23,432 nt of DNA from a virus (taxonomy: Duplodnaviria; Heunggongvirae; Uroviricota; Caudoviricetes), in the IMG/VR virus record IMGVR_UViG_2531839127_000024, positions 1 to 23,432 of that record; one strand, given 5' to 3'. Below are positions 3,347 to 9,780 of this stretch, one piece after another. Below the pieces are notes generated by a model. It was not told where the DNA came from. It saw only the letters and a program-made list of their open reading frames with translations, and did no database searches. The first letter of the stretch is position 1, and each line of letters starts with the position of its first letter. The position numbers and the translations under genes are program-made.

Positions 3347-3618
3347 GGATTCGTATCGAAATTGGCGAACGTTATGTCGTTACCAGTGACAGCTTTCAGT
3401 TTATTCTCCACGAGAAAAAGAGAGCGGAAAGCGGTAAAAACGCCGGTCAGGAATGGCTGGCGGTGGTTGGTTATTACCCGAAATTAAGCCAGCTCGTTTC
3501 CGGCCTGATGCATCACGATATTCTGACCGGAAGCGCAAAGTCTTTTGCTGATTTAAACGCGCAGGTTGAGCAACTCAGCAGGCGTTGTTCAGAGGCTTTT
3601 GGCTCATATGGCCGTTAA
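3343..3618 (+). CDS. Small early protein (P2 orf83 position), 91 aa
   Basis: ATG 3343 overlaps the orf82 stop; GGAGAA RBS; overlaps the A start region. Confidence 0.6.
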   Translation: MRIRIEIGERYVVTSDSFQFILHEKKRAESGKNAGQEWLAVVGYYPKLSQLVSGLMHHDILTGSAKSFADLNAQVEQLSRRCSEAFGSYGR

Positions 3619-5893
3619 AGCCTCCGGGCGTTTTGTCCCTCCGTCAGCATTTGCTGCAGGCACCGGTAAGGCGTTTACCGGTGCTTATGCATGGAACGCG
3701 CCACGCGAGGCCGTCGGGCGCGAAAGACTCCTTACACGTGACGAGATGCGTCAGGTGCAAGGTGTTTTATCCACGATTAACCGCCTGCCTTACTTTTTGC
3801 GCTCGCTGTTTACTTCACGCTATGACTACATCCGGCGCAATAAAAGCCCGGTGCACGGGTTTTATTTCCTCACATCCACTTTTCAGCGTCGTTTATGGCC
3901 GCGCATTGAGCGTGTGAATCAGCGCCATGAAATGAACACCGACGCGTCGTTACTGTTTCTGGCAGAGCGTGACCACTATGCGCGCCTGCCGGGAATGAAT
4001 GACAAGGAGCTGAAAAAGTTTGCCGCCCGTATCTCATCGCAGCTTTTCATGATGTATGAGGAACTCTGCGATGCCTGGGTGGATGCGCATGGCGAAAAAG
4101 AATCGCTGTTTACGGATGAGGCGCAGGCGCATCTGTATGGTCATGTTGCTGGCGCTGCACGTGCTTTCAATATTTCCCCTCTCTACTGGAAAAAATACCG
4201 TAAAGGACAGATGACCACGAGGCAGGCATATTCTGCCATTGCCCGTCTGTTTAACGATGAGTGGTGGACTCATCAGCTTAAAGGCCAGCGTATGCGCTGG
4301 CATGAGGCGTTACTGATTGCTGTCGGGGAGGTGAATAAAGACCGTTCTCCTTATGCCAGTAAACATGCCATTCGTGATGTGCGTGCGCGCCGCCAGGCAA
4401 ATCTGGAATTTCTTAAATCGTGTGACCTTGAAAACAGGGAAACCGGCGAGCGCATCGACCTTATCAGTAAGGTGATGGGAAGTATTTCTAATCCTGAAAT
4501 TCGCCGGATGGAGCTGATGAACACCATTGCCGGTATTGAGCGTTACGCCGCCGCAGAGGGTGATGTGGGGATGTTTATCACGCTGACCGCGCCGTCAAAG
4601 TATCACCCGACACGTCAGGTCGGAAAAGGCGAAAGTAAAACCGTCCAGCTAAATCACGGCTGGAACGATGAGGCATTTAATCCAAAGGATGCGCAGCGTT
4701 ATCTCTGCCGCATCTGGAGCCTGATGCGCACGGCATTCAAGGATAATGATTTACAGGTCTACGGTTTGCGTGTCGTCGAGCCACACCACGACGGAACGCC
4801 GCACTGGCATATGATGCTTTTTTGTAATCCACGTCAGCGTAACCAGATTATCGAAACCATGCGTCGCTACGCGCTCAAAGAGGATGGCGACGAAAGAGGA
4901 GCCGAGCGAAACCGTTTTCAGGCGAAACACCTTAACCGGGGCGGTGCTGCGGGGTATATCGCGAAATACATTTCAAAAAATATCGACGGCTATGCACTGG
5001 ATGGTCAGCTCGATAACGATACCGGCAGACCTCTGAAAGATACTGCCGCGGCTGTTACTGCATGGGCGTCAACGTGGCGCATCCCGCAATTTAAAACGGT
5101 TGGTCTGCCGACAATGGGGGCTTACCGTGAACTACGCAAATTGCCTCGCGGCGTCAGCATTGCTGATGAGTTTGACGAACGCGTCGAGGCTGCACGCGCT
5201 GCCGCAGACAGTGGCGATTTTGCGTTGTATATCAGCGCGCAGGGTGGGGCAAATGTCCCGCGCGATTGTCAGACTGTCAGGGTTGCCCGTAGCCCGTCGG
5301 ATGACGTTAACGAGTACGAGGAAGAAGTCGAGAGAGTGGTCGGCATTTACGCGCCGCATCTCGGCGCGCGTCATATTCATATCACCAGAACGACGGACTG
5401 GCGCATTGTGCCGAAAGTTCCGGTCGTTGAGCCTTTGACTTTAAAAAGCGGCATCGCCGCGCCTCGGAGTCCTGTCAATAACTGTGGAAAGCTCACCGGT
5501 GGTGATGCTTCGTTACCGGCTCCCACACCTTCTGAGCACGCCGCAGCAGTGCTTAATCTGGTTGATGACGGTGTTATCGAATGGAATGACCCGGAGGTCG
5601 TGAGGGCGCTCAGAAGCGCATTAAAACACGGTCTGAGAAGACCAAACCGTCAGCAAAGAAACGGAAACCCGTTAAAACCGCATGAAATAGCGCCATCGGC
5701 CAGACTGACCCGGTCAGAACGATTGCAAATTACCCGTATCCGCGTTGACCTCGCTCAGAACGGTATCAGGCCGCAACGATGGGAGCTTGAGGCGCTGGTG
5801 CGTGGCGCGACCGTAAATTATGACGGGAAAAAATTCACGTATCCGGTCGCTGATGAGTGGCCGGGATTCTCAACAGTAATGGAGTGGACATGA
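3608..5893 (+). CDS. A: Rolling-circle replication initiator A (761 aa)
   Basis: From ATG 3608 the protein starts MAVKASGRFVPP and is exactly 761 aa, matching P2 gpA as I recall it; contains HWHMMLF (HUH-like) motif. Track start at 3566 is TTG. Confidence 0.9.
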   Translation: MAVKASGRFVPPSAFAAGTGKAFTGAYAWNAPREAVGRERLLTRDEMRQVQGVLSTINRLPYFLRSLFTSRYDYIRRNKSPVHGFYFLTSTFQRRLWPRIERVNQRHEMNTDASLLFLAERDHYARLPGMNDKELKKFAARISSQLFMMYEELCDAWVDAHGEKESLFTDEAQAHLYGHVAGAARAFNISPLYWKKYRKGQMTTRQAYSAIARLFNDEWWTHQLKGQRMRWHEALLIAVGEVNKDRSPYASKHAIRDVRARRQANLEFLKSCDLENRETGERIDLISKVMGSISNPEIRRMELMNTIAGIERYAAAEGDVGMFITLTAPSKYHPTRQVGKGESKTVQLNHGWNDEAFNPKDAQRYLCRIWSLMRTAFKDNDLQVYGLRVVEPHHDGTPHWHMMLFCNPRQRNQIIETMRRYALKEDGDERGAERNRFQAKHLNRGGAAGYIAKYISKNIDGYALDGQLDNDTGRPLKDTAAAVTAWASTWRIPQFKTVGLPTMGAYRELRKLPRGVSIADEFDERVEAARAAADSGDFALYISAQGGANVPRDCQTVRVARSPSDDVNEYEEEVERVVGIYAPHLGARHIHITRTTDWRIVPKVPVVEPLTLKSGIAAPRSPVNNCGKLTGGDASLPAPTPSEHAAAVLNLVDDGVIEWNDPEVVRALRSALKHGLRRPNRQQRNGNPLKPHEIAPSARLTRSERLQITRIRVDLAQNGIRPQRWELEALVRGATVNYDGKKFTYPVADEWPGFSTVMEWT

Positions 5894-6378
5894 TGGCAAA
5901 AATTCACGAGGTAAAGCTGCACGCAAAATATTTCGACCTTGTACTGGAAGGAAAAAAACGCGCAGAGTTTCGGAAAAATGACCGTAATTATGAGCGCGGG
6001 GACACGTTGATTTTGCATGAATGGGTGCAGGGTGTGTTTACGGGGCGAAAGGTTGAAGCCCGGATAACAGATGTTACTGACCTGTCAGACTGGCTGGAAG
6101 ATTATGTCTTGCTAAGTATTGAGCTGCTTAATACGGGCGCATATAAGATTGTGAACTGGAAAGAACTTAGTGAACGTGGTCTGGTATTCAGAATTAATCA
6201 TGAAATTATGCATCAGCTCGGCCTTGCTGTTATGTATGAACCAGAGACGGGCTGTCTGGCGGGGCAGTGGTTGCTGCGGATGGGATATGGAACTATTCAG
6301 ATGAACAGGTGGAGCGTGCAAAGCAAAACGGGTGGCTTGGATAATGCACAGAATACCAGGCGAGATACCGCACCATAA
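5890..6378 (+). CDS. ASCH/DUF3850-like protein (P2 orf91-like N-terminus) with about 70-aa C-terminal extension
   Basis: ATGATG at 5890-5895 overlaps the A stop; GGAG RBS at 5881; N-terminus MAKIHEVKLHAKYFDLVLEGKKRAEFRK is ASCH-like. 162 aa versus 91 aa for P2 orf91. Confidence 0.65.
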   Translation: MMAKIHEVKLHAKYFDLVLEGKKRAEFRKNDRNYERGDTLILHEWVQGVFTGRKVEARITDVTDLSDWLEDYVLLSIELLNTGAYKIVNWKELSERGLVFRINHEIMHQLGLAVMYEPETGCLAGQWLLRMGYGTIQMNRWSVQSKTGGLDNAQNTRRDTAP

Positions 6379-6397
6379 AACTAAAAATATCAAGCTG

Positions 6398-6550
6398 ATG
6401 GCTATTGTTCAGCGTTTACAGCGGATTATGGTCAACGAAAATCTGACGCCCGATGAGCTGGTCGGGTGTGCCGAAATAGTTCGGGATAATTACGGGCGGC
6501 TTAACTATATCGGTCAGTCCAGAGTTGCGCCACCACCACGAAGACGATAG
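6398..6550 (+). CDS. Hypothetical small protein (50 aa), doubtful
   Basis: ATG-initiated ORF at the backbone/cargo junction; no convincing RBS. Confidence 0.2.
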   Translation: MAIVQRLQRIMVNENLTPDELVGCAEIVRDNYGRLNYIGQSRVAPPPRRR

Positions 6551-6773
6551 AGAACGCCGCCAGTCGTGAAACTTGTTTTCAGGGCTGGCGGGGTTGAACA
6601 ACGAGCGTAGCGAGGCGTTAGTTGACAGACATATTTTTACTGCGTTGGTGCCGGTTTTTGACGGTTGAAAGGAGTTAGGTTGGAGAGCTAACAACTTACA
6701 AATATTCAAAAGTAAGCATCCTGTTGCTAACATGAGGTCGATTTTTTATGTGGATGATGCAAAAAGGATAGCT

Positions 6774-7505
6774 ATGGATACTATAATCGCTTTTCTATCA
6801 CTCGCTTTTTTCGTTGCTTTCTTCATCGGGTTAATCAAGCCATCACTGGTGCGAATGCCAAACCGCAAACGTGCAAGTGCGGTTTATCTCGGAGGAGGTT
6901 TTGTATTGAGCATAATTGGTTCAATACTCTATCCAACAGAAAAAAGCCAGCCAGTTGATAAAACTGAAACATCAACCGTTGCAGAACATAAAGTCCAAAA
7001 AACATTCGAATATGGTGAAAAAACACTCAAGGAATATCGGAACGAGTCAAAGAAAACACGACACGATATTGTGAATAGTTACATTGATTTTAAGGAAGTT
7101 CCAGCCACCGCGTCAGATGCGTTTTATGCCTGCATGAGTGAATATACATTTACCAAAGATGATGAGTTGAAACTCGGTGATGTTCTTGGGTGGTGCTTTA
7201 ATGATTATGAAAATGACCCGAATTCACTAAACAATAAAATCAATCTTGATACATTTCAGAGTAATTTTAGTGGTTGGGATGGTTCTTATCGTCCATTGGA
7301 AAAACTAATTAAAGATAATATGAACGATGATTCATCTTATAAACATGTATCAACGGTATATCATCTGGTTTTGAATAAAGACCCGCATGCCATTGTGAAA
7401 ACCACGTTTCGCGGAACTAATGCTTATGGCGGAGTGGTGAAACAGACGATTGCTGCGCGTGTTGATATAAAAACTGGTAAGGTGATATCAATCATAGATA
7501 ATTGA
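6774..7505 (+). CDS. Cargo protein 1: unrecognised membrane protein, two N-terminal TM helices plus about 180-aa soluble domain (243 aa)
   Basis: AAAGGA RBS 5 nt upstream of ATG 6774 (in-frame alternative ATG 6732); hydrophobic segments IIAFLSLAFFVAFFIGLI and VYLGGGFVLSIIGSILY separated by basic loop RMPNRKRAS; AT-rich codon usage unlike the phage backbone. Confidence 0.7.
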   Translation: MDTIIAFLSLAFFVAFFIGLIKPSLVRMPNRKRASAVYLGGGFVLSIIGSILYPTEKSQPVDKTETSTVAEHKVQKTFEYGEKTLKEYRNESKKTRHDIVNSYIDFKEVPATASDAFYACMSEYTFTKDDELKLGDVLGWCFNDYENDPNSLNNKINLDTFQSNFSGWDGSYRPLEKLIKDNMNDDSSYKHVSTVYHLVLNKDPHAIVKTTFRGTNAYGGVVKQTIAARVDIKTGKVISIIDN

Positions 7506-7514
7506 TATCTTACA

Positions 7515-7555
7515 ATGCCGACGCTGAATATTTAATTGGGTGTCGGCATTTTTTG
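7515..7555 (+). terminator. Putative intrinsic terminator after cargo gene 1
   Basis: Stem ATGCCGAC (7515-7522) pairs with GTCGGCAT (7542-7549), followed by TTTTTT; loop is long (19 nt), so moderate confidence. Confidence 0.45.
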
Positions 7556-7614
7556 ACTATTAGAGCGGCAGAACCGAGATTTGTTGCGTATGAGATTAGC
7601 ACTGCGAGAATGTT

Positions 7615-8397
7615 ATGAAAATTATAAACCAACTTAAGAAGTTTGATAAGAAAAGAACGCCAGATGATGGCCGTATTAGTTTGTTATATGAAAACGCGAT
7701 TAAGTATGATATGTACTCTGTATATATTAAAGATAAAAATGATACAGAATACCTCTTTGACTGTTTGGTTGATGGGAAGATAAAGGCTTTTAAATGGGAT
7801 GATGAGGAGCGTAGATTTCATATAAGTTCATGCTTGGATATTTCTGAGGTTACGCCTGATTCTTTTTTTGGTGTTTACTACTACCGTGCGCATGAGTTGC
7901 GATTTAACTCTTTAAATGATTTAACATTTTTAAGGGAGTTGTTCTTTAGAGTAAAGTCTAATTATGAAAATATAAAGTTTAGTCGTGAAAAATATATTTA
8001 TCGACAGCAAAAAAAAGAAATAACTGATGTGATGTTTGTTCTCTCAACGATTATAAGAATGTATCGTGAATGGGATGCTCAAACTGTGTTTAGTGAGTTT
8101 TCAATAATGACCGAAGTCGCTGGTAGTTTATGGGTATACCATGACGATAAAAACAGGATGCGTAAAGAGCTTCGTTTATGCCTGAATTCTCTTGTTCAGA
8201 ATGGAGATCTTGTTGAAACAAGTAGTGGATTTAGGCCAACAGGAAAGGCACTGAACACAATATCTACATTCAATAAAGATGAGGTGCGGTACAGAGAGAA
8301 TTTGAGTACTCAGAAGAAAATGTTTTGGGCTACTTTTTTCGCAGCAGTCGGCGGCGTAGGAAGTATGATTGCAGCTATAATAGGGCTTCTAAAATGA
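7615..8397 (+). CDS. Cargo protein 2: unrecognised protein with cytoplasmic N-domain and single C-terminal TM helix (260 aa)
   Basis: ATG ORF; very AT-rich; C-terminal hydrophobic segment FWATFFAAVGGVGSMIAAIIGLL preceded by KK; no catalytic motif recognised. Confidence 0.7.
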   Translation: MKIINQLKKFDKKRTPDDGRISLLYENAIKYDMYSVYIKDKNDTEYLFDCLVDGKIKAFKWDDEERRFHISSCLDISEVTPDSFFGVYYYRAHELRFNSLNDLTFLRELFFRVKSNYENIKFSREKYIYRQQKKEITDVMFVLSTIIRMYREWDAQTVFSEFSIMTEVAGSLWVYHDDKNRMRKELRLCLNSLVQNGDLVETSSGFRPTGKALNTISTFNKDEVRYRENLSTQKKMFWATFFAAVGGVGSMIAAIIGLLK

Positions 8398-8557
8398 GCC
8401 AACAAAATCGTATGATGAAGTATTGAGTGAAAAGCATTCTTTATATGCATTATTTTGCATGCAACATATGCTATACATTCTAGCTATGAATTGTCAGACG
8501 TGGCAGTACTTCTGTATGGTAATGCAACTGCATTAAAACCGCCCCATGAAGCGGGCG

Positions 8558-8576
8558 GGCGAGGCGGGGAAAGCAC
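8558..8576. other. cos cohesive-end site (19-nt P2-type cohesive end GGCGAGGCGGGGAAAGCAC)
   Basis: Exact 19-mer that I recall as the P2 cohesive end, followed by G/T-rich packaging-region sequence, located just downstream of Q as in P2. Confidence 0.65.
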
Positions 8577-8745: not shown

Positions 8746-9780
8746 TCAGCCGTTGTCAGTGTCCAGTGAGTAGTTTTTAAAGCGGATGACCTCCTGACCG
8801 AGCCAGCCGTTTATCTCGCGGATCCTGTCCTGTAGCGGGATAAGCTCATTACGGACAAAGACCTTTGCCACTTTCTCAATATCACCCAGCGACCCGACGT
8901 TCTCCGGCTTGCCGCCCATCAACTGAAAGGGGATACGGTGCGCGTCCAGCAGGTCAGCGGCGCTGGCTTTTTTGATATTAAAAAAATCGTCCTTCGTTGC
9001 CACTTCACTGAGCGGGATAATTTTAATGCCGTCAGCTTTCCCCTGCGGGGCATAGAGAAACAGGTTTTTAAAGTTGTTGCGGCCTTTCGACTTAACCATG
9101 TTTTCGCGAAGCATTTCGATATCGTTGCGATCCTGCACGGCATCGGTGACGTACATGATGTATCCGGCATGAGCGCCATTTTCGTAATACTTTCGGCGGA
9201 ACAGCGTGGCCGACTCATTCAGCCAGGCAGAATTAAGGGCGCTGAGATATTCCGGCAGGCCGTACAACTCCTGATTAATATCCGGCTCCAGCAGGTGAAA
9301 CACGGAGCCGGGCGTGAAGGCTGTCGGCTCGTTGAAGGACGGCACCCACCAGTAAACATCCTCCTCCACGCCACGGCGGGTATATTTTGCCGGTGAGGTT
9401 TCCAGTCTGATGACCTTACCGGTGGTGCTGTAACGCTTTTCCAGAAACGCATTACCGAAAACCAGAAAATCCAGCACAAAGCGGCTGAAATCCTGCTGGG
9501 AAAGCCACGGATGCGGGATAAATGTCGAGGCCAGAATATTGCGTTTAACGTAAATCGGTGAGCTGTGATGCACGGCAGCACGCAGGCTTTTTGCCAGACC
9601 GGTAAAGCTGACCGGTGGCTCATACCATCTGCCGTTACTGATGCACTCGACGTAATCCAGAATGTCACGGCGGTCGAGTACCGGCACCGGCTCGCCAAAG
9701 GTGAATGCTTCCATTTTCGGGGCGCTGGCAGTCATTGTTTTCACCGCTGGCTGCGGTGTTTTCCCTTTTTTCTTACTCAT
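8746..9780 (-). CDS. Q: Portal protein (344 aa)
   Basis: Length identical to P2 gpQ; ATG overlaps the P stop (ATGA); position next to cos. Confidence 0.9.
   Translation of the reverse strand: MSKKKGKTPQPAVKTMTASAPKMEAFTFGEPVPVLDRRDILDYVECISNGRWYEPPVSFTGLAKSLRAAVHHSSPIYVKRNILASTFIPHPWLSQQDFSRFVLDFLVFGNAFLEKRYSTTGKVIRLETSPAKYTRRGVEEDVYWWVPSFNEPTAFTPGSVFHLLEPDINQELYGLPEYLSALNSAWLNESATLFRRKYYENGAHAGYIMYVTDAVQDRNDIEMLRENMVKSKGRNNFKNLFLYAPQGKADGIKIIPLSEVATKDDFFNIKKASAADLLDAHRIPFQLMGGKPENVGSLGDIEKVAKVFVRNELIPLQDRIREINGWLGQEVIRFKNYSLDTDNG

What the first reader, a model, noticed from the sequence alone, without database searches (positions are those of the whole stretch)
6379..8557. AT-rich two-gene cargo island at the tin/old position, directly upstream of cos
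In P2 the segment between orf91 and cos carries the exclusion genes tin and old, and this locus is a recognised hotspot where P2-like prophages exchange anti-phage systems. Here it holds two genes with strongly AT-rich composition, unlike the GC-rich backbone. They encode a 243-aa protein with two N-terminal TM helices and a 260-aa protein with a single C-terminal TM helix. No OLD-family ATPase/nuclease-sized ORF (about 586 aa in P2) is present, and I see no recognisable catalytic motif in either protein. Position, composition and membrane association make this the best candidate for an undescribed exclusion or abortive-infection module.
Basis: partly seen in the sequence, partly recalled or inferred. 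Interest (0 to 1): 0.8.

Follow-up and report, generated by a model that had tools for sequence, protein, structure and literature searches.

The report
Two separate membrane-protein cassettes before cos
The AT-rich island next to the packaging site of this P2-like prophage is real, but it holds two independent single-gene cassettes rather than one two-gene system: a relative of phage 186 Orf97, already recorded as blocking phage infection, and a membrane-anchored protein from a large family that nobody has studied.

Summary
Window 6624-8516 has GC 0.37 against 0.53 elsewhere. It carries two + strand genes just before the P2 cos site (8558-8576). One encodes a 243-aa protein with two N-terminal TM helices, the other a 260-aa protein with one C-terminal TM helix.

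(1) The genes are not an obligate pair. Each occurs alone or with unrelated neighbours in many phages. Rousset et al. 2022 list them as separate single-gene entries (systems 12 and 68), and tested neither.

(2) Gene 1 is not undescribed. It is a full-length homologue (76% identity) of coliphage 186 Orf97, whose GenBank note reads "expression from plasmid blocks 186 infection". In 186-like phages it follows tum in the LexA-controlled SOS operon. Here it is cargo, with no tum and no LexA box. Charge distribution, two invariant cysteines and HdeA/Tai4-like plus cystatin-like folds point to a periplasmic domain. That suggests exclusion at the cell envelope.

(3) Gene 2 has no known relative. It is a tail-anchored protein with a cytoplasmic beta-domain and a winged helix. 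Its family (phrog_7611; 637 clusters) occurs as single-gene cargo in several prophage types and as a Vibrio cholerae integron cassette. A defence role is plausible but untested.

The parts
6593..6621 (+). 29-nt junction motif GTTGAACAACGAGC-N3-GCGAGGCGTTAG that marks the left edge of the variable cargo
   Evidence: Unique in the window, with 0 matches expected by chance. Homology to P2-type phages ends at about 6623. The motif is shared with phage 186, where it lies 49 bp after orf97. It is present once in 88 of 116 hotspot loci.
6774..7505 (+). Gene 1: Orf97-family protein, 243 aa. Two N-terminal TM helices, a disordered linker, and a predicted periplasmic alpha+beta domain with two invariant cysteines.
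7515..7554 (+). Intrinsic-terminator-like hairpin plus T6 between the two genes
   Evidence: RNA fold -24 kcal/mol, z = -5.8, 0 of 200 shuffles fold as well, followed by UUUUUU. Present only in the E. coli lineage of the pair.
7615..8397 (+). Gene 2: tail-anchored inner-membrane protein, 260 aa. Cytoplasmic beta-domain (about residues 32-97), long helix, winged-helix domain (about 135-210), juxtamembrane helix and C-terminal TM (about 236-258).
8558..8576 (+). cos: the 19-nt P2 cohesive-end sequence, which forms the right boundary of the hotspot
   Evidence: Identical to the last 19 nt (cosR) of the phage P2 record AF063097.

Best explanation
The island consists of two independent single-gene accessory cassettes lodged in the gpA-cos hotspot of a P2-type prophage.

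Cassette 1 (6774-7505) encodes an Orf97-family inner-membrane protein. Two TM helices form a hairpin with a strongly basic cytoplasmic loop. They display a disulfide-stabilised alpha+beta domain in the periplasm. By homology with phage 186 Orf97 it most likely excludes superinfecting P2/186-like phages. By inference from topology and fold, it does so at the envelope, by binding a periplasm-exposed part of the incoming phage's DNA-delivery apparatus. T4 Spackle and P22 SieA work this way.

Cassette 2 (7615-8397) encodes a tail-anchored inner-membrane protein whose cytoplasmic part is a variable beta-domain plus a conserved winged helix. It most likely acts alone, as a membrane-tethered sensor-effector that aborts or excludes infection. 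This is inferred only from its architecture and from where its relatives are found.

Shown: the anatomy, the homology, the independence of the two genes, and the mobile-element contexts. Inferred: periplasmic location, envelope-level mechanism, and any defence role for gene 2.
For: Gene 1 function. Full-length 76% identity to 186 Orf97. The depositors' note on that gene reads 'expression from plasmid blocks 186 infection', and the gene sits in the annotated operon p95-tum-t95a-orf97-t95b.

Gene 1 topology. The loop has net charge +5 against -1 on the flanks. The only two cysteines are invariant across 38 diverse homologues. The best fold matches are periplasmic proteins: HdeA/HdeB, YmgD, the T6SS amidase-immunity proteins Rap1a and Tai4, and VirB8-like domains.

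Independence. Co-occurrence counts. A strong terminator between the genes in this lineage. Rousset et al. list them as separate single-gene systems 12 and 68.

Gene 2 autonomy. It is the sole cargo gene between gpA and cos in L031, L033 and L034. Relatives occur in non-P2 prophage accessory regions. One relative is a single-gene V. cholerae superintegron cassette flanked by attC repeats. Across 637 clusters the N-terminal domain varies while the winged helix, juxtamembrane helix and TM anchor are conserved.

Precedents. Spackle (PMC7677548), SieA (PMC10883804) and PdpSau (PMC10127798).
Confidence: 0.55

Rival explanations
1. One reading: the two membrane proteins work together as one two-gene exclusion or abortive-infection system, for example a periplasmic sensor plus a cytoplasmic membrane effector.
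For: They are adjacent and co-oriented. The pairing recurs at high divergence: gene 1 at about 77% and gene 2 at about 60% identity in Klebsiella/Enterobacter-type phages, with adjacent locus tags in K. aerogenes. Gene 2 is the second most common downstream neighbour of gene 1, at 15-16 of 80 loci.
Against: Gene 1 occurs without gene 2 in 64 of 80 viral loci and 89 of 95 E. coli genomes. Gene 2 occurs without gene 1 in about 16 of 36 loci and in up to 10 of 16 E. coli genomes (the one I inspected, L122, has no gene 1), sometimes as the only cargo gene. In 186-like phages gene 1 belongs to the tum operon backbone, and gene 2 is just one of at least 12 alternative cargoes after the junction motif. 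There is a strong terminator between them here. A gene 2 relative is a one-gene integron cassette.
Confidence: 0.1
2. Gene 1 is not an exclusion factor. It could be an envelope or SOS-linked accessory protein, for example a membrane-tethered HdeA-like periplasmic chaperone, an orphan immunity protein against peptidoglycan-targeting toxins, or a helper of prophage induction.
For: The top fold hits are the acid-stress chaperones HdeA/HdeB and the T6SS amidase-immunity proteins. In 186-like phages it is co-transcribed with the antirepressor Tum under LexA control. PMC5322425 groups tum and orf97 as an induction module.
Against: The depositors' note states that expression blocks 186 infection. There is no Pfam HdeA match in any of 38 members. 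The gene persists in P2-type phages without tum, so it has a tum-independent role. Fold scores are modest and cover only a sub-domain.
Confidence: 0.15
3. Gene 2 has a non-defence function: a membrane-tethered winged-helix regulator or DNA anchor, a lysis or cell-division modulator, or a selfish or toxic membrane protein.
For: Winged-helix folds are typical of transcription factors, partition proteins (TubR) and kleisins. There is no defence-model match. One relative lies in a chromosomal context that is not obviously mobile. The hotspot also carries non-defence cargo.
Against: It is repeatedly found as an exchangeable single gene in defence-rich hotspots of unrelated prophages and in an integron array. 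The pattern of a variable N-terminal domain with a conserved anchor is typical of sensor-effector immunity proteins. It is not conserved with any phage core module.
Confidence: 0.3

Closest known systems
Coliphage 186 Orf97 (GenBank U32222.1, AAC34191.1; phrog_3403)
   Same: Full-length homologue of gene 1: 76% identity, same length, same two TM helices, same invariant cysteines. Same position close to cos. The annotated phenotype is 'expression from plasmid blocks 186 infection'.
   Different: In 186 the gene is the second gene of the LexA-repressed SOS operon, after tum. The window copy has no tum and no LexA box, lies on the cargo side of the junction motif in a P2-type phage, and is followed by another cassette.
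T4 Spackle (and Imm) and P22 SieA superinfection-exclusion proteins
   Same: Small phage-encoded envelope proteins that stop DNA delivery by related phages. Spackle is periplasmic and inhibits the tail lysozyme gp5 (PMC7677548). [quoted passage not shown] Gene 1 has the matching predicted location, and its homologue has an exclusion phenotype.
HdeA/HdeB, YmgD and the T6SS immunity proteins Rap1a/Tai4 (periplasmic helical fold)
   Different: 5-16% identity and no Pfam match. Gene 1 adds a cystatin/NTF2-like sheet and a 2-TM anchor.
Rousset '2TM + 1TM + TIR' system of P2-like phage AC1
   Same: Same hotspot, and likewise a 2-TM protein next to a 1-TM protein (PMC9122126).
   Different: There is no TIR gene here, and the TM proteins are unrelated (hhalign probability below 1%).
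PdpSau of Staphylococcus aureus prophages
   Same: A single prophage accessory gene encoding a membrane-anchored protein with a cytoplasmic domain. It aborts infection with membrane depolarisation (PMC10127798). This is the working analogy for gene 2.
   Different: PdpSau has an N-terminal anchor and an unrelated sequence. Gene 2 is tail-anchored and has a winged helix. No phenotype is known for gene 2.

Membership tests
Phage 186 Orf97 family (phrog_3403) | Full-length sequence homology to 186 Orf97 | tested here: met
   76% identity over residues 1-243, E = 8e-117. phrog_3403 matched over residues 1-243, E = 3e-147.
Phage 186 Orf97 family (phrog_3403) | Two N-terminal TM helices plus a conserved C-terminal domain with two cysteines | tested here: met
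   C120 and C141 are invariant in 38 sequences.
Phage 186 Orf97 family (phrog_3403) | Placed after tum in a LexA-controlled SOS operon | tested here: not met
   No Tum homologue in the window (best E = 0.84) and no LexA box upstream of gene 1. 60 of 80 related loci do have tum. This is a feature of context, not of the protein family.
Phage 186 Orf97 family (phrog_3403) | Expression blocks infection by 186-type phage | not testable with these tools
   Known only from the GenBank note on U32222.1.
P2 Tin | Sequence homology to Tin | tested here: not met
   BLASTP E > 1 for both proteins.
OLD-family nuclease | An ABC-ATPase + TOPRIM protein of about 586 aa | tested here: not met
   Longest ORFs are 257 and 260 aa. 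No Pfam or PADLOC ATPase or TOPRIM hit.
Rst 2TM_1TM_TIR (phage AC1 system) | A TIR protein together with homologous 2TM and 1TM proteins | tested here: not met
   No third gene. hhalign probability 0.3% and 0.4% against the AC1 TM proteins.
Any PADLOC-DB v2 defence or candidate family | A match to a defence-protein HMM | tested here: not met
   No hit at all for gene 1 and no significant hit for gene 2 (best E = 0.021, DruD). Nothing below E = 1e-3 for 68 remote gene 2 relatives.
HdeA/HdeB chaperones | HdeA fold and a match to the family profile | tested here: inconclusive
Winged-helix DNA-binding regulators (MarR-like), for gene 2 | A winged-helix fold | tested here: met
Winged-helix DNA-binding regulators (MarR-like), for gene 2 | A match to an HTH family profile, and DNA binding | tested here: inconclusive
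   Only 2 of 68 relatives give weak HTH_45 hits. The region has net charge -2. DNA binding cannot be tested here.
Integron gene cassette (gene 2 family) | A single ORF flanked by attC sites | tested here: met
   Met for the V. cholerae relative: VCR repeats end 84 bp upstream of the start codon and begin 1 bp after the stop codon. This does not apply to the window copy, which is prophage cargo.

The most novel reading that the evidence does not exclude
Gene 2 defines a large, unrecognised family (phrog_7611; at least 637 clusters at 50% identity) of single-protein, tail-anchored, winged-helix membrane proteins. The family moves between prophage hotspots and integron arrays. It could be a new kind of stand-alone anti-phage sensor-effector, in which a variable cytoplasmic beta-domain senses a phage component and the conserved winged helix, juxtamembrane helix and TM anchor carry out the response at the inner membrane.
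Probability: 0.3. Interest if true: 0.6.

Novelty: new member of a known kind. Interest (0 to 1): 0.4.

Why it matters
For gene 1, the result links a common but unannotated hotspot entry (Rousset system 12; 95 of 5426 complete E. coli genomes) to an old, nearly forgotten exclusion phenotype in phage 186. It also adds a structural and topological hypothesis that can be tested directly: a periplasmic, disulfide-bonded binding domain. That would explain why the gene is kept both in the 186 SOS operon and as free cargo in P2-type phages.

For gene 2, it shows that a rare hotspot gene belongs to a large, coherent family with a fixed architecture. The family travels as a single gene in several kinds of mobile element. 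That makes it a reasonable candidate for the growing list of one-gene membrane defences.

The work also corrects the assumption that neighbouring genes in this hotspot form one system.

Tried and rejected
- Pfam, NCBIfam and PADLOC scans of both proteins and of 38, 24 and 68 family members found nothing consistent.
- A PDB sequence-profile search found nothing.
- The BFVD viral fold search for gene 1 gave only unannotated hits. AFDB50 was not available.
- P2 Tin homology was rejected. Kinship with the AC1 2TM/1TM proteins was rejected. The two proteins are not related to each other.
- Accession and peptide searches in the Vassallo 2022 supplements and in the full-text library found nothing.
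- A profile search with the remote gene 2 alignment through the word-indexed database added nothing. The remote alignment was too divergent for a locus scan.
- The genome-contig scan gave only one locus.
- The idea that gene 2 is the effector of the upstream reverse transcriptase in 10 E. coli genomes was rejected. That RT and its HTH partner form a complete type VI retron protein pair.
- No Rfam RNA was found in the island.
- A terminator after gene 1 is not general. It is strong only in the E. coli pair lineage, so I use it only as lineage-specific support.

Full report
**What is there.** The window is a P2-type prophage. It runs from the gpA replication gene (3566-5893) through a DUF3850/ASCH ORF and a 68-aa ORF, then two + strand ORFs at 6774-7505 (243 aa; the ORF is open from 6732) and 7615-8397 (260 aa). 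After these come the cos site, then portal Q (8746-9780, - strand) and terminase P. The P2 cosR 19-mer sits at 8558-8576.

GC drops to 0.366 over 6624-8516, against 0.534 for the rest of the window. No other window of the same size falls below 0.438. Hydropathy and AlphaFold2 confirm two N-terminal TM helices in gene 1 and one C-terminal TM helix in gene 2. No ORF is OLD-sized, and neither protein resembles P2 Tin. The one correction is that the first 245 bp of the stated interval are conserved backbone.

**The two genes are not one module.** I fetched 36 loci encoding gene 2 relatives and 80 encoding gene 1 relatives.

- Gene 2 has gene 1 directly upstream in about 20 of 36 loci and no gene 1 in about 16 of 36. 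In L031, L033 and L034 it is the only gene between gpA and cos.
- Gene 1 has gene 2 downstream in 16 of 80 loci. It has nothing downstream (about 500 bp to the portal gene) in about 11 of 80.
- Elsewhere gene 1 sits beside at least 12 other gene types. These include an RT-Abi-P2, a DUF262-like protein and a 2-TM family of 205-242 aa.
- In 5426 complete E. coli genomes, gene 1 occurs in 95, gene 2 in 16, and the pair in 6.
- Ten of the sixteen carry a divergent gene 2. In the one I inspected (L122), and in viral loci L022, L029 and L037, it follows a complete type VI retron RT+HTH pair.
- Between the two genes here lies a strong terminator-like hairpin: -24 kcal/mol, z = -5.8, followed by U6. 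It is specific to this lineage.
- Rousset et al. 2022 (PMC9122126, Table S5B) list the two proteins separately. Gene 1 is 'system 12' (single gene, '2 TM', 210 occurrences) and gene 2 is 'system 68' (single gene, '1 TM', 62 occurrences). Neither is among the systems they cloned.

**Gene 1 is an Orf97 homologue.** A tblastn search of phage records shows 76% identity over all 243 residues to Orf97 of coliphage 186. Weaker relatives occur in Vibrio phage VHML (45%) and in Helicobacter and Aeromonas phages.

The 186 record annotates orf97 with 'expression from plasmid blocks 186 infection'. It places the gene in the LexA-controlled SOS operon p95-tum-t95a-orf97-t95b. The operon is attributed to Brumby et al. 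1996 in PMC5322425.

Sixty of the 80 gene 1 loci have a Tum homologue immediately upstream. In those 186-like phages orf97 is part of the backbone. The 20 E. coli P2-type loci and this window have no tum and no LexA box.

I therefore infer an N-out/C-out topology with a disulfide-bonded periplasmic binding domain. I also infer an exclusion mechanism at the envelope, analogous to T4 Spackle (PMC7677548) or P22 SieA (PMC10883804). The phenotype is taken from a database note. The location and mechanism are inference.

**Gene 2 is a member of a large uncharacterised family.** No Pfam, NCBIfam, PADLOC or PDB-sequence match exists. No sequenced phage record encodes a relative.

A profile search of 1.84 billion representatives finds 637 clusters at E<=1e-3 and 233 at E<=1e-10. 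Nearly all are 250-300 aa and align over their full length. The C-terminal TM is kept in 110 of 132 full-length representatives, and 19 more have it slightly further from the end. All 68 sampled members hit phrog_7611, 'unknown function'. The C-terminal winged helix and juxtamembrane helix are the best conserved part, and the N-terminal domain is the most variable.

Relatives occur in accessory regions of other prophage types and beside a umuDC-like module at the edge of an integrated element. In V. cholerae a relative is a single-gene superintegron cassette bracketed by VCR/attC repeats. One relative lies in a context that is not obviously mobile. This pattern fits an autonomous, horizontally traded function. 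I think defence is the most likely, by analogy with single-gene membrane Abi proteins such as PdpSau (PMC10127798), but nothing demonstrates it.

**Comparison with known systems.** Gene 1 passes the sequence and architecture tests for the Orf97 family but not the operon-context feature. Neither protein is related to the TM proteins of the validated AC1 '2TM+1TM+TIR' system, to Tin or OLD, or to any PADLOC model.

**Verdict.** The feature is real and the position argument is sound. The island is two cassettes, not one system. Gene 1 is a new member, in a new genomic context, of a family with a recorded exclusion phenotype. Gene 2 is an unstudied family and deserves a direct test. Overall interest is moderate (0.4). 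The most novel reading still open is that gene 2's family is a new widespread one-protein membrane defence (probability about 0.3).

Noticed in passing
window 6593-6621; also L128 (phage 186) 4281-4309 and most of L005-L120: A conserved 29-nt motif, GTTGAACAACGAGC-N3-GCGAGGCGTTAG, marks the left edge of the variable cargo. It lies 181 bp upstream of gene 1 in E. coli P2-type phages. In 186-like phages it lies about 50-58 bp downstream of orf97 and about 100 bp upstream of whatever cargo follows. Some loci have two copies flanking a cassette (L059, L104). It may be a recombination junction or a regulatory element. It forms only a weak hairpin and matches no Rfam family.
   Followed up: partly
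L051 6831-7529, L002 4217-4873, L003 4340-5038 and 17 other loci: The commonest downstream neighbour of gene 1 (20 of 80 loci) is another uncharacterised family of 205-242 aa. The three members I read in full (L001-L003) show two hydrophobic N-terminal segments and a variable C-terminal domain. I did not examine it further.
   Followed up: no
L129 5001-5801 (V. cholerae chromosome 2, AP023332.1): A remote relative of gene 2 is a single-gene cassette of the V. cholerae superintegron, bracketed by VCR/attC repeats. There are 17 repeat copies in 10.8 kb.
   Followed up: yes
L005 5466-6768 (Pantoea sp. B65): Here a gene 2 relative directly follows a Tum homologue, in the slot that orf97 occupies in 186-like phages (Tum sequence).
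   Followed up: partly
window 5893-6378 and 6344-6550: Homology to canonical P2 (AF063097) ends at 6113, inside the gene after A. This phage has a DUF3850/ASCH + DUF7415 ORF (related to a PHROG annotated as RNA-binding protein) and a 68-aa ORF (phrog_11386) where P2 has orf91.
   Followed up: no
L122 1837-3073 (E. coli EH01-18-02), also L022, L029, L037: A type VI retron protein pair (PADLOC HTH_VI + RT_VI) occupies the same hotspot just upstream of a divergent gene 2. No msr/msd RNA was detected with Rfam.
   Followed up: partly
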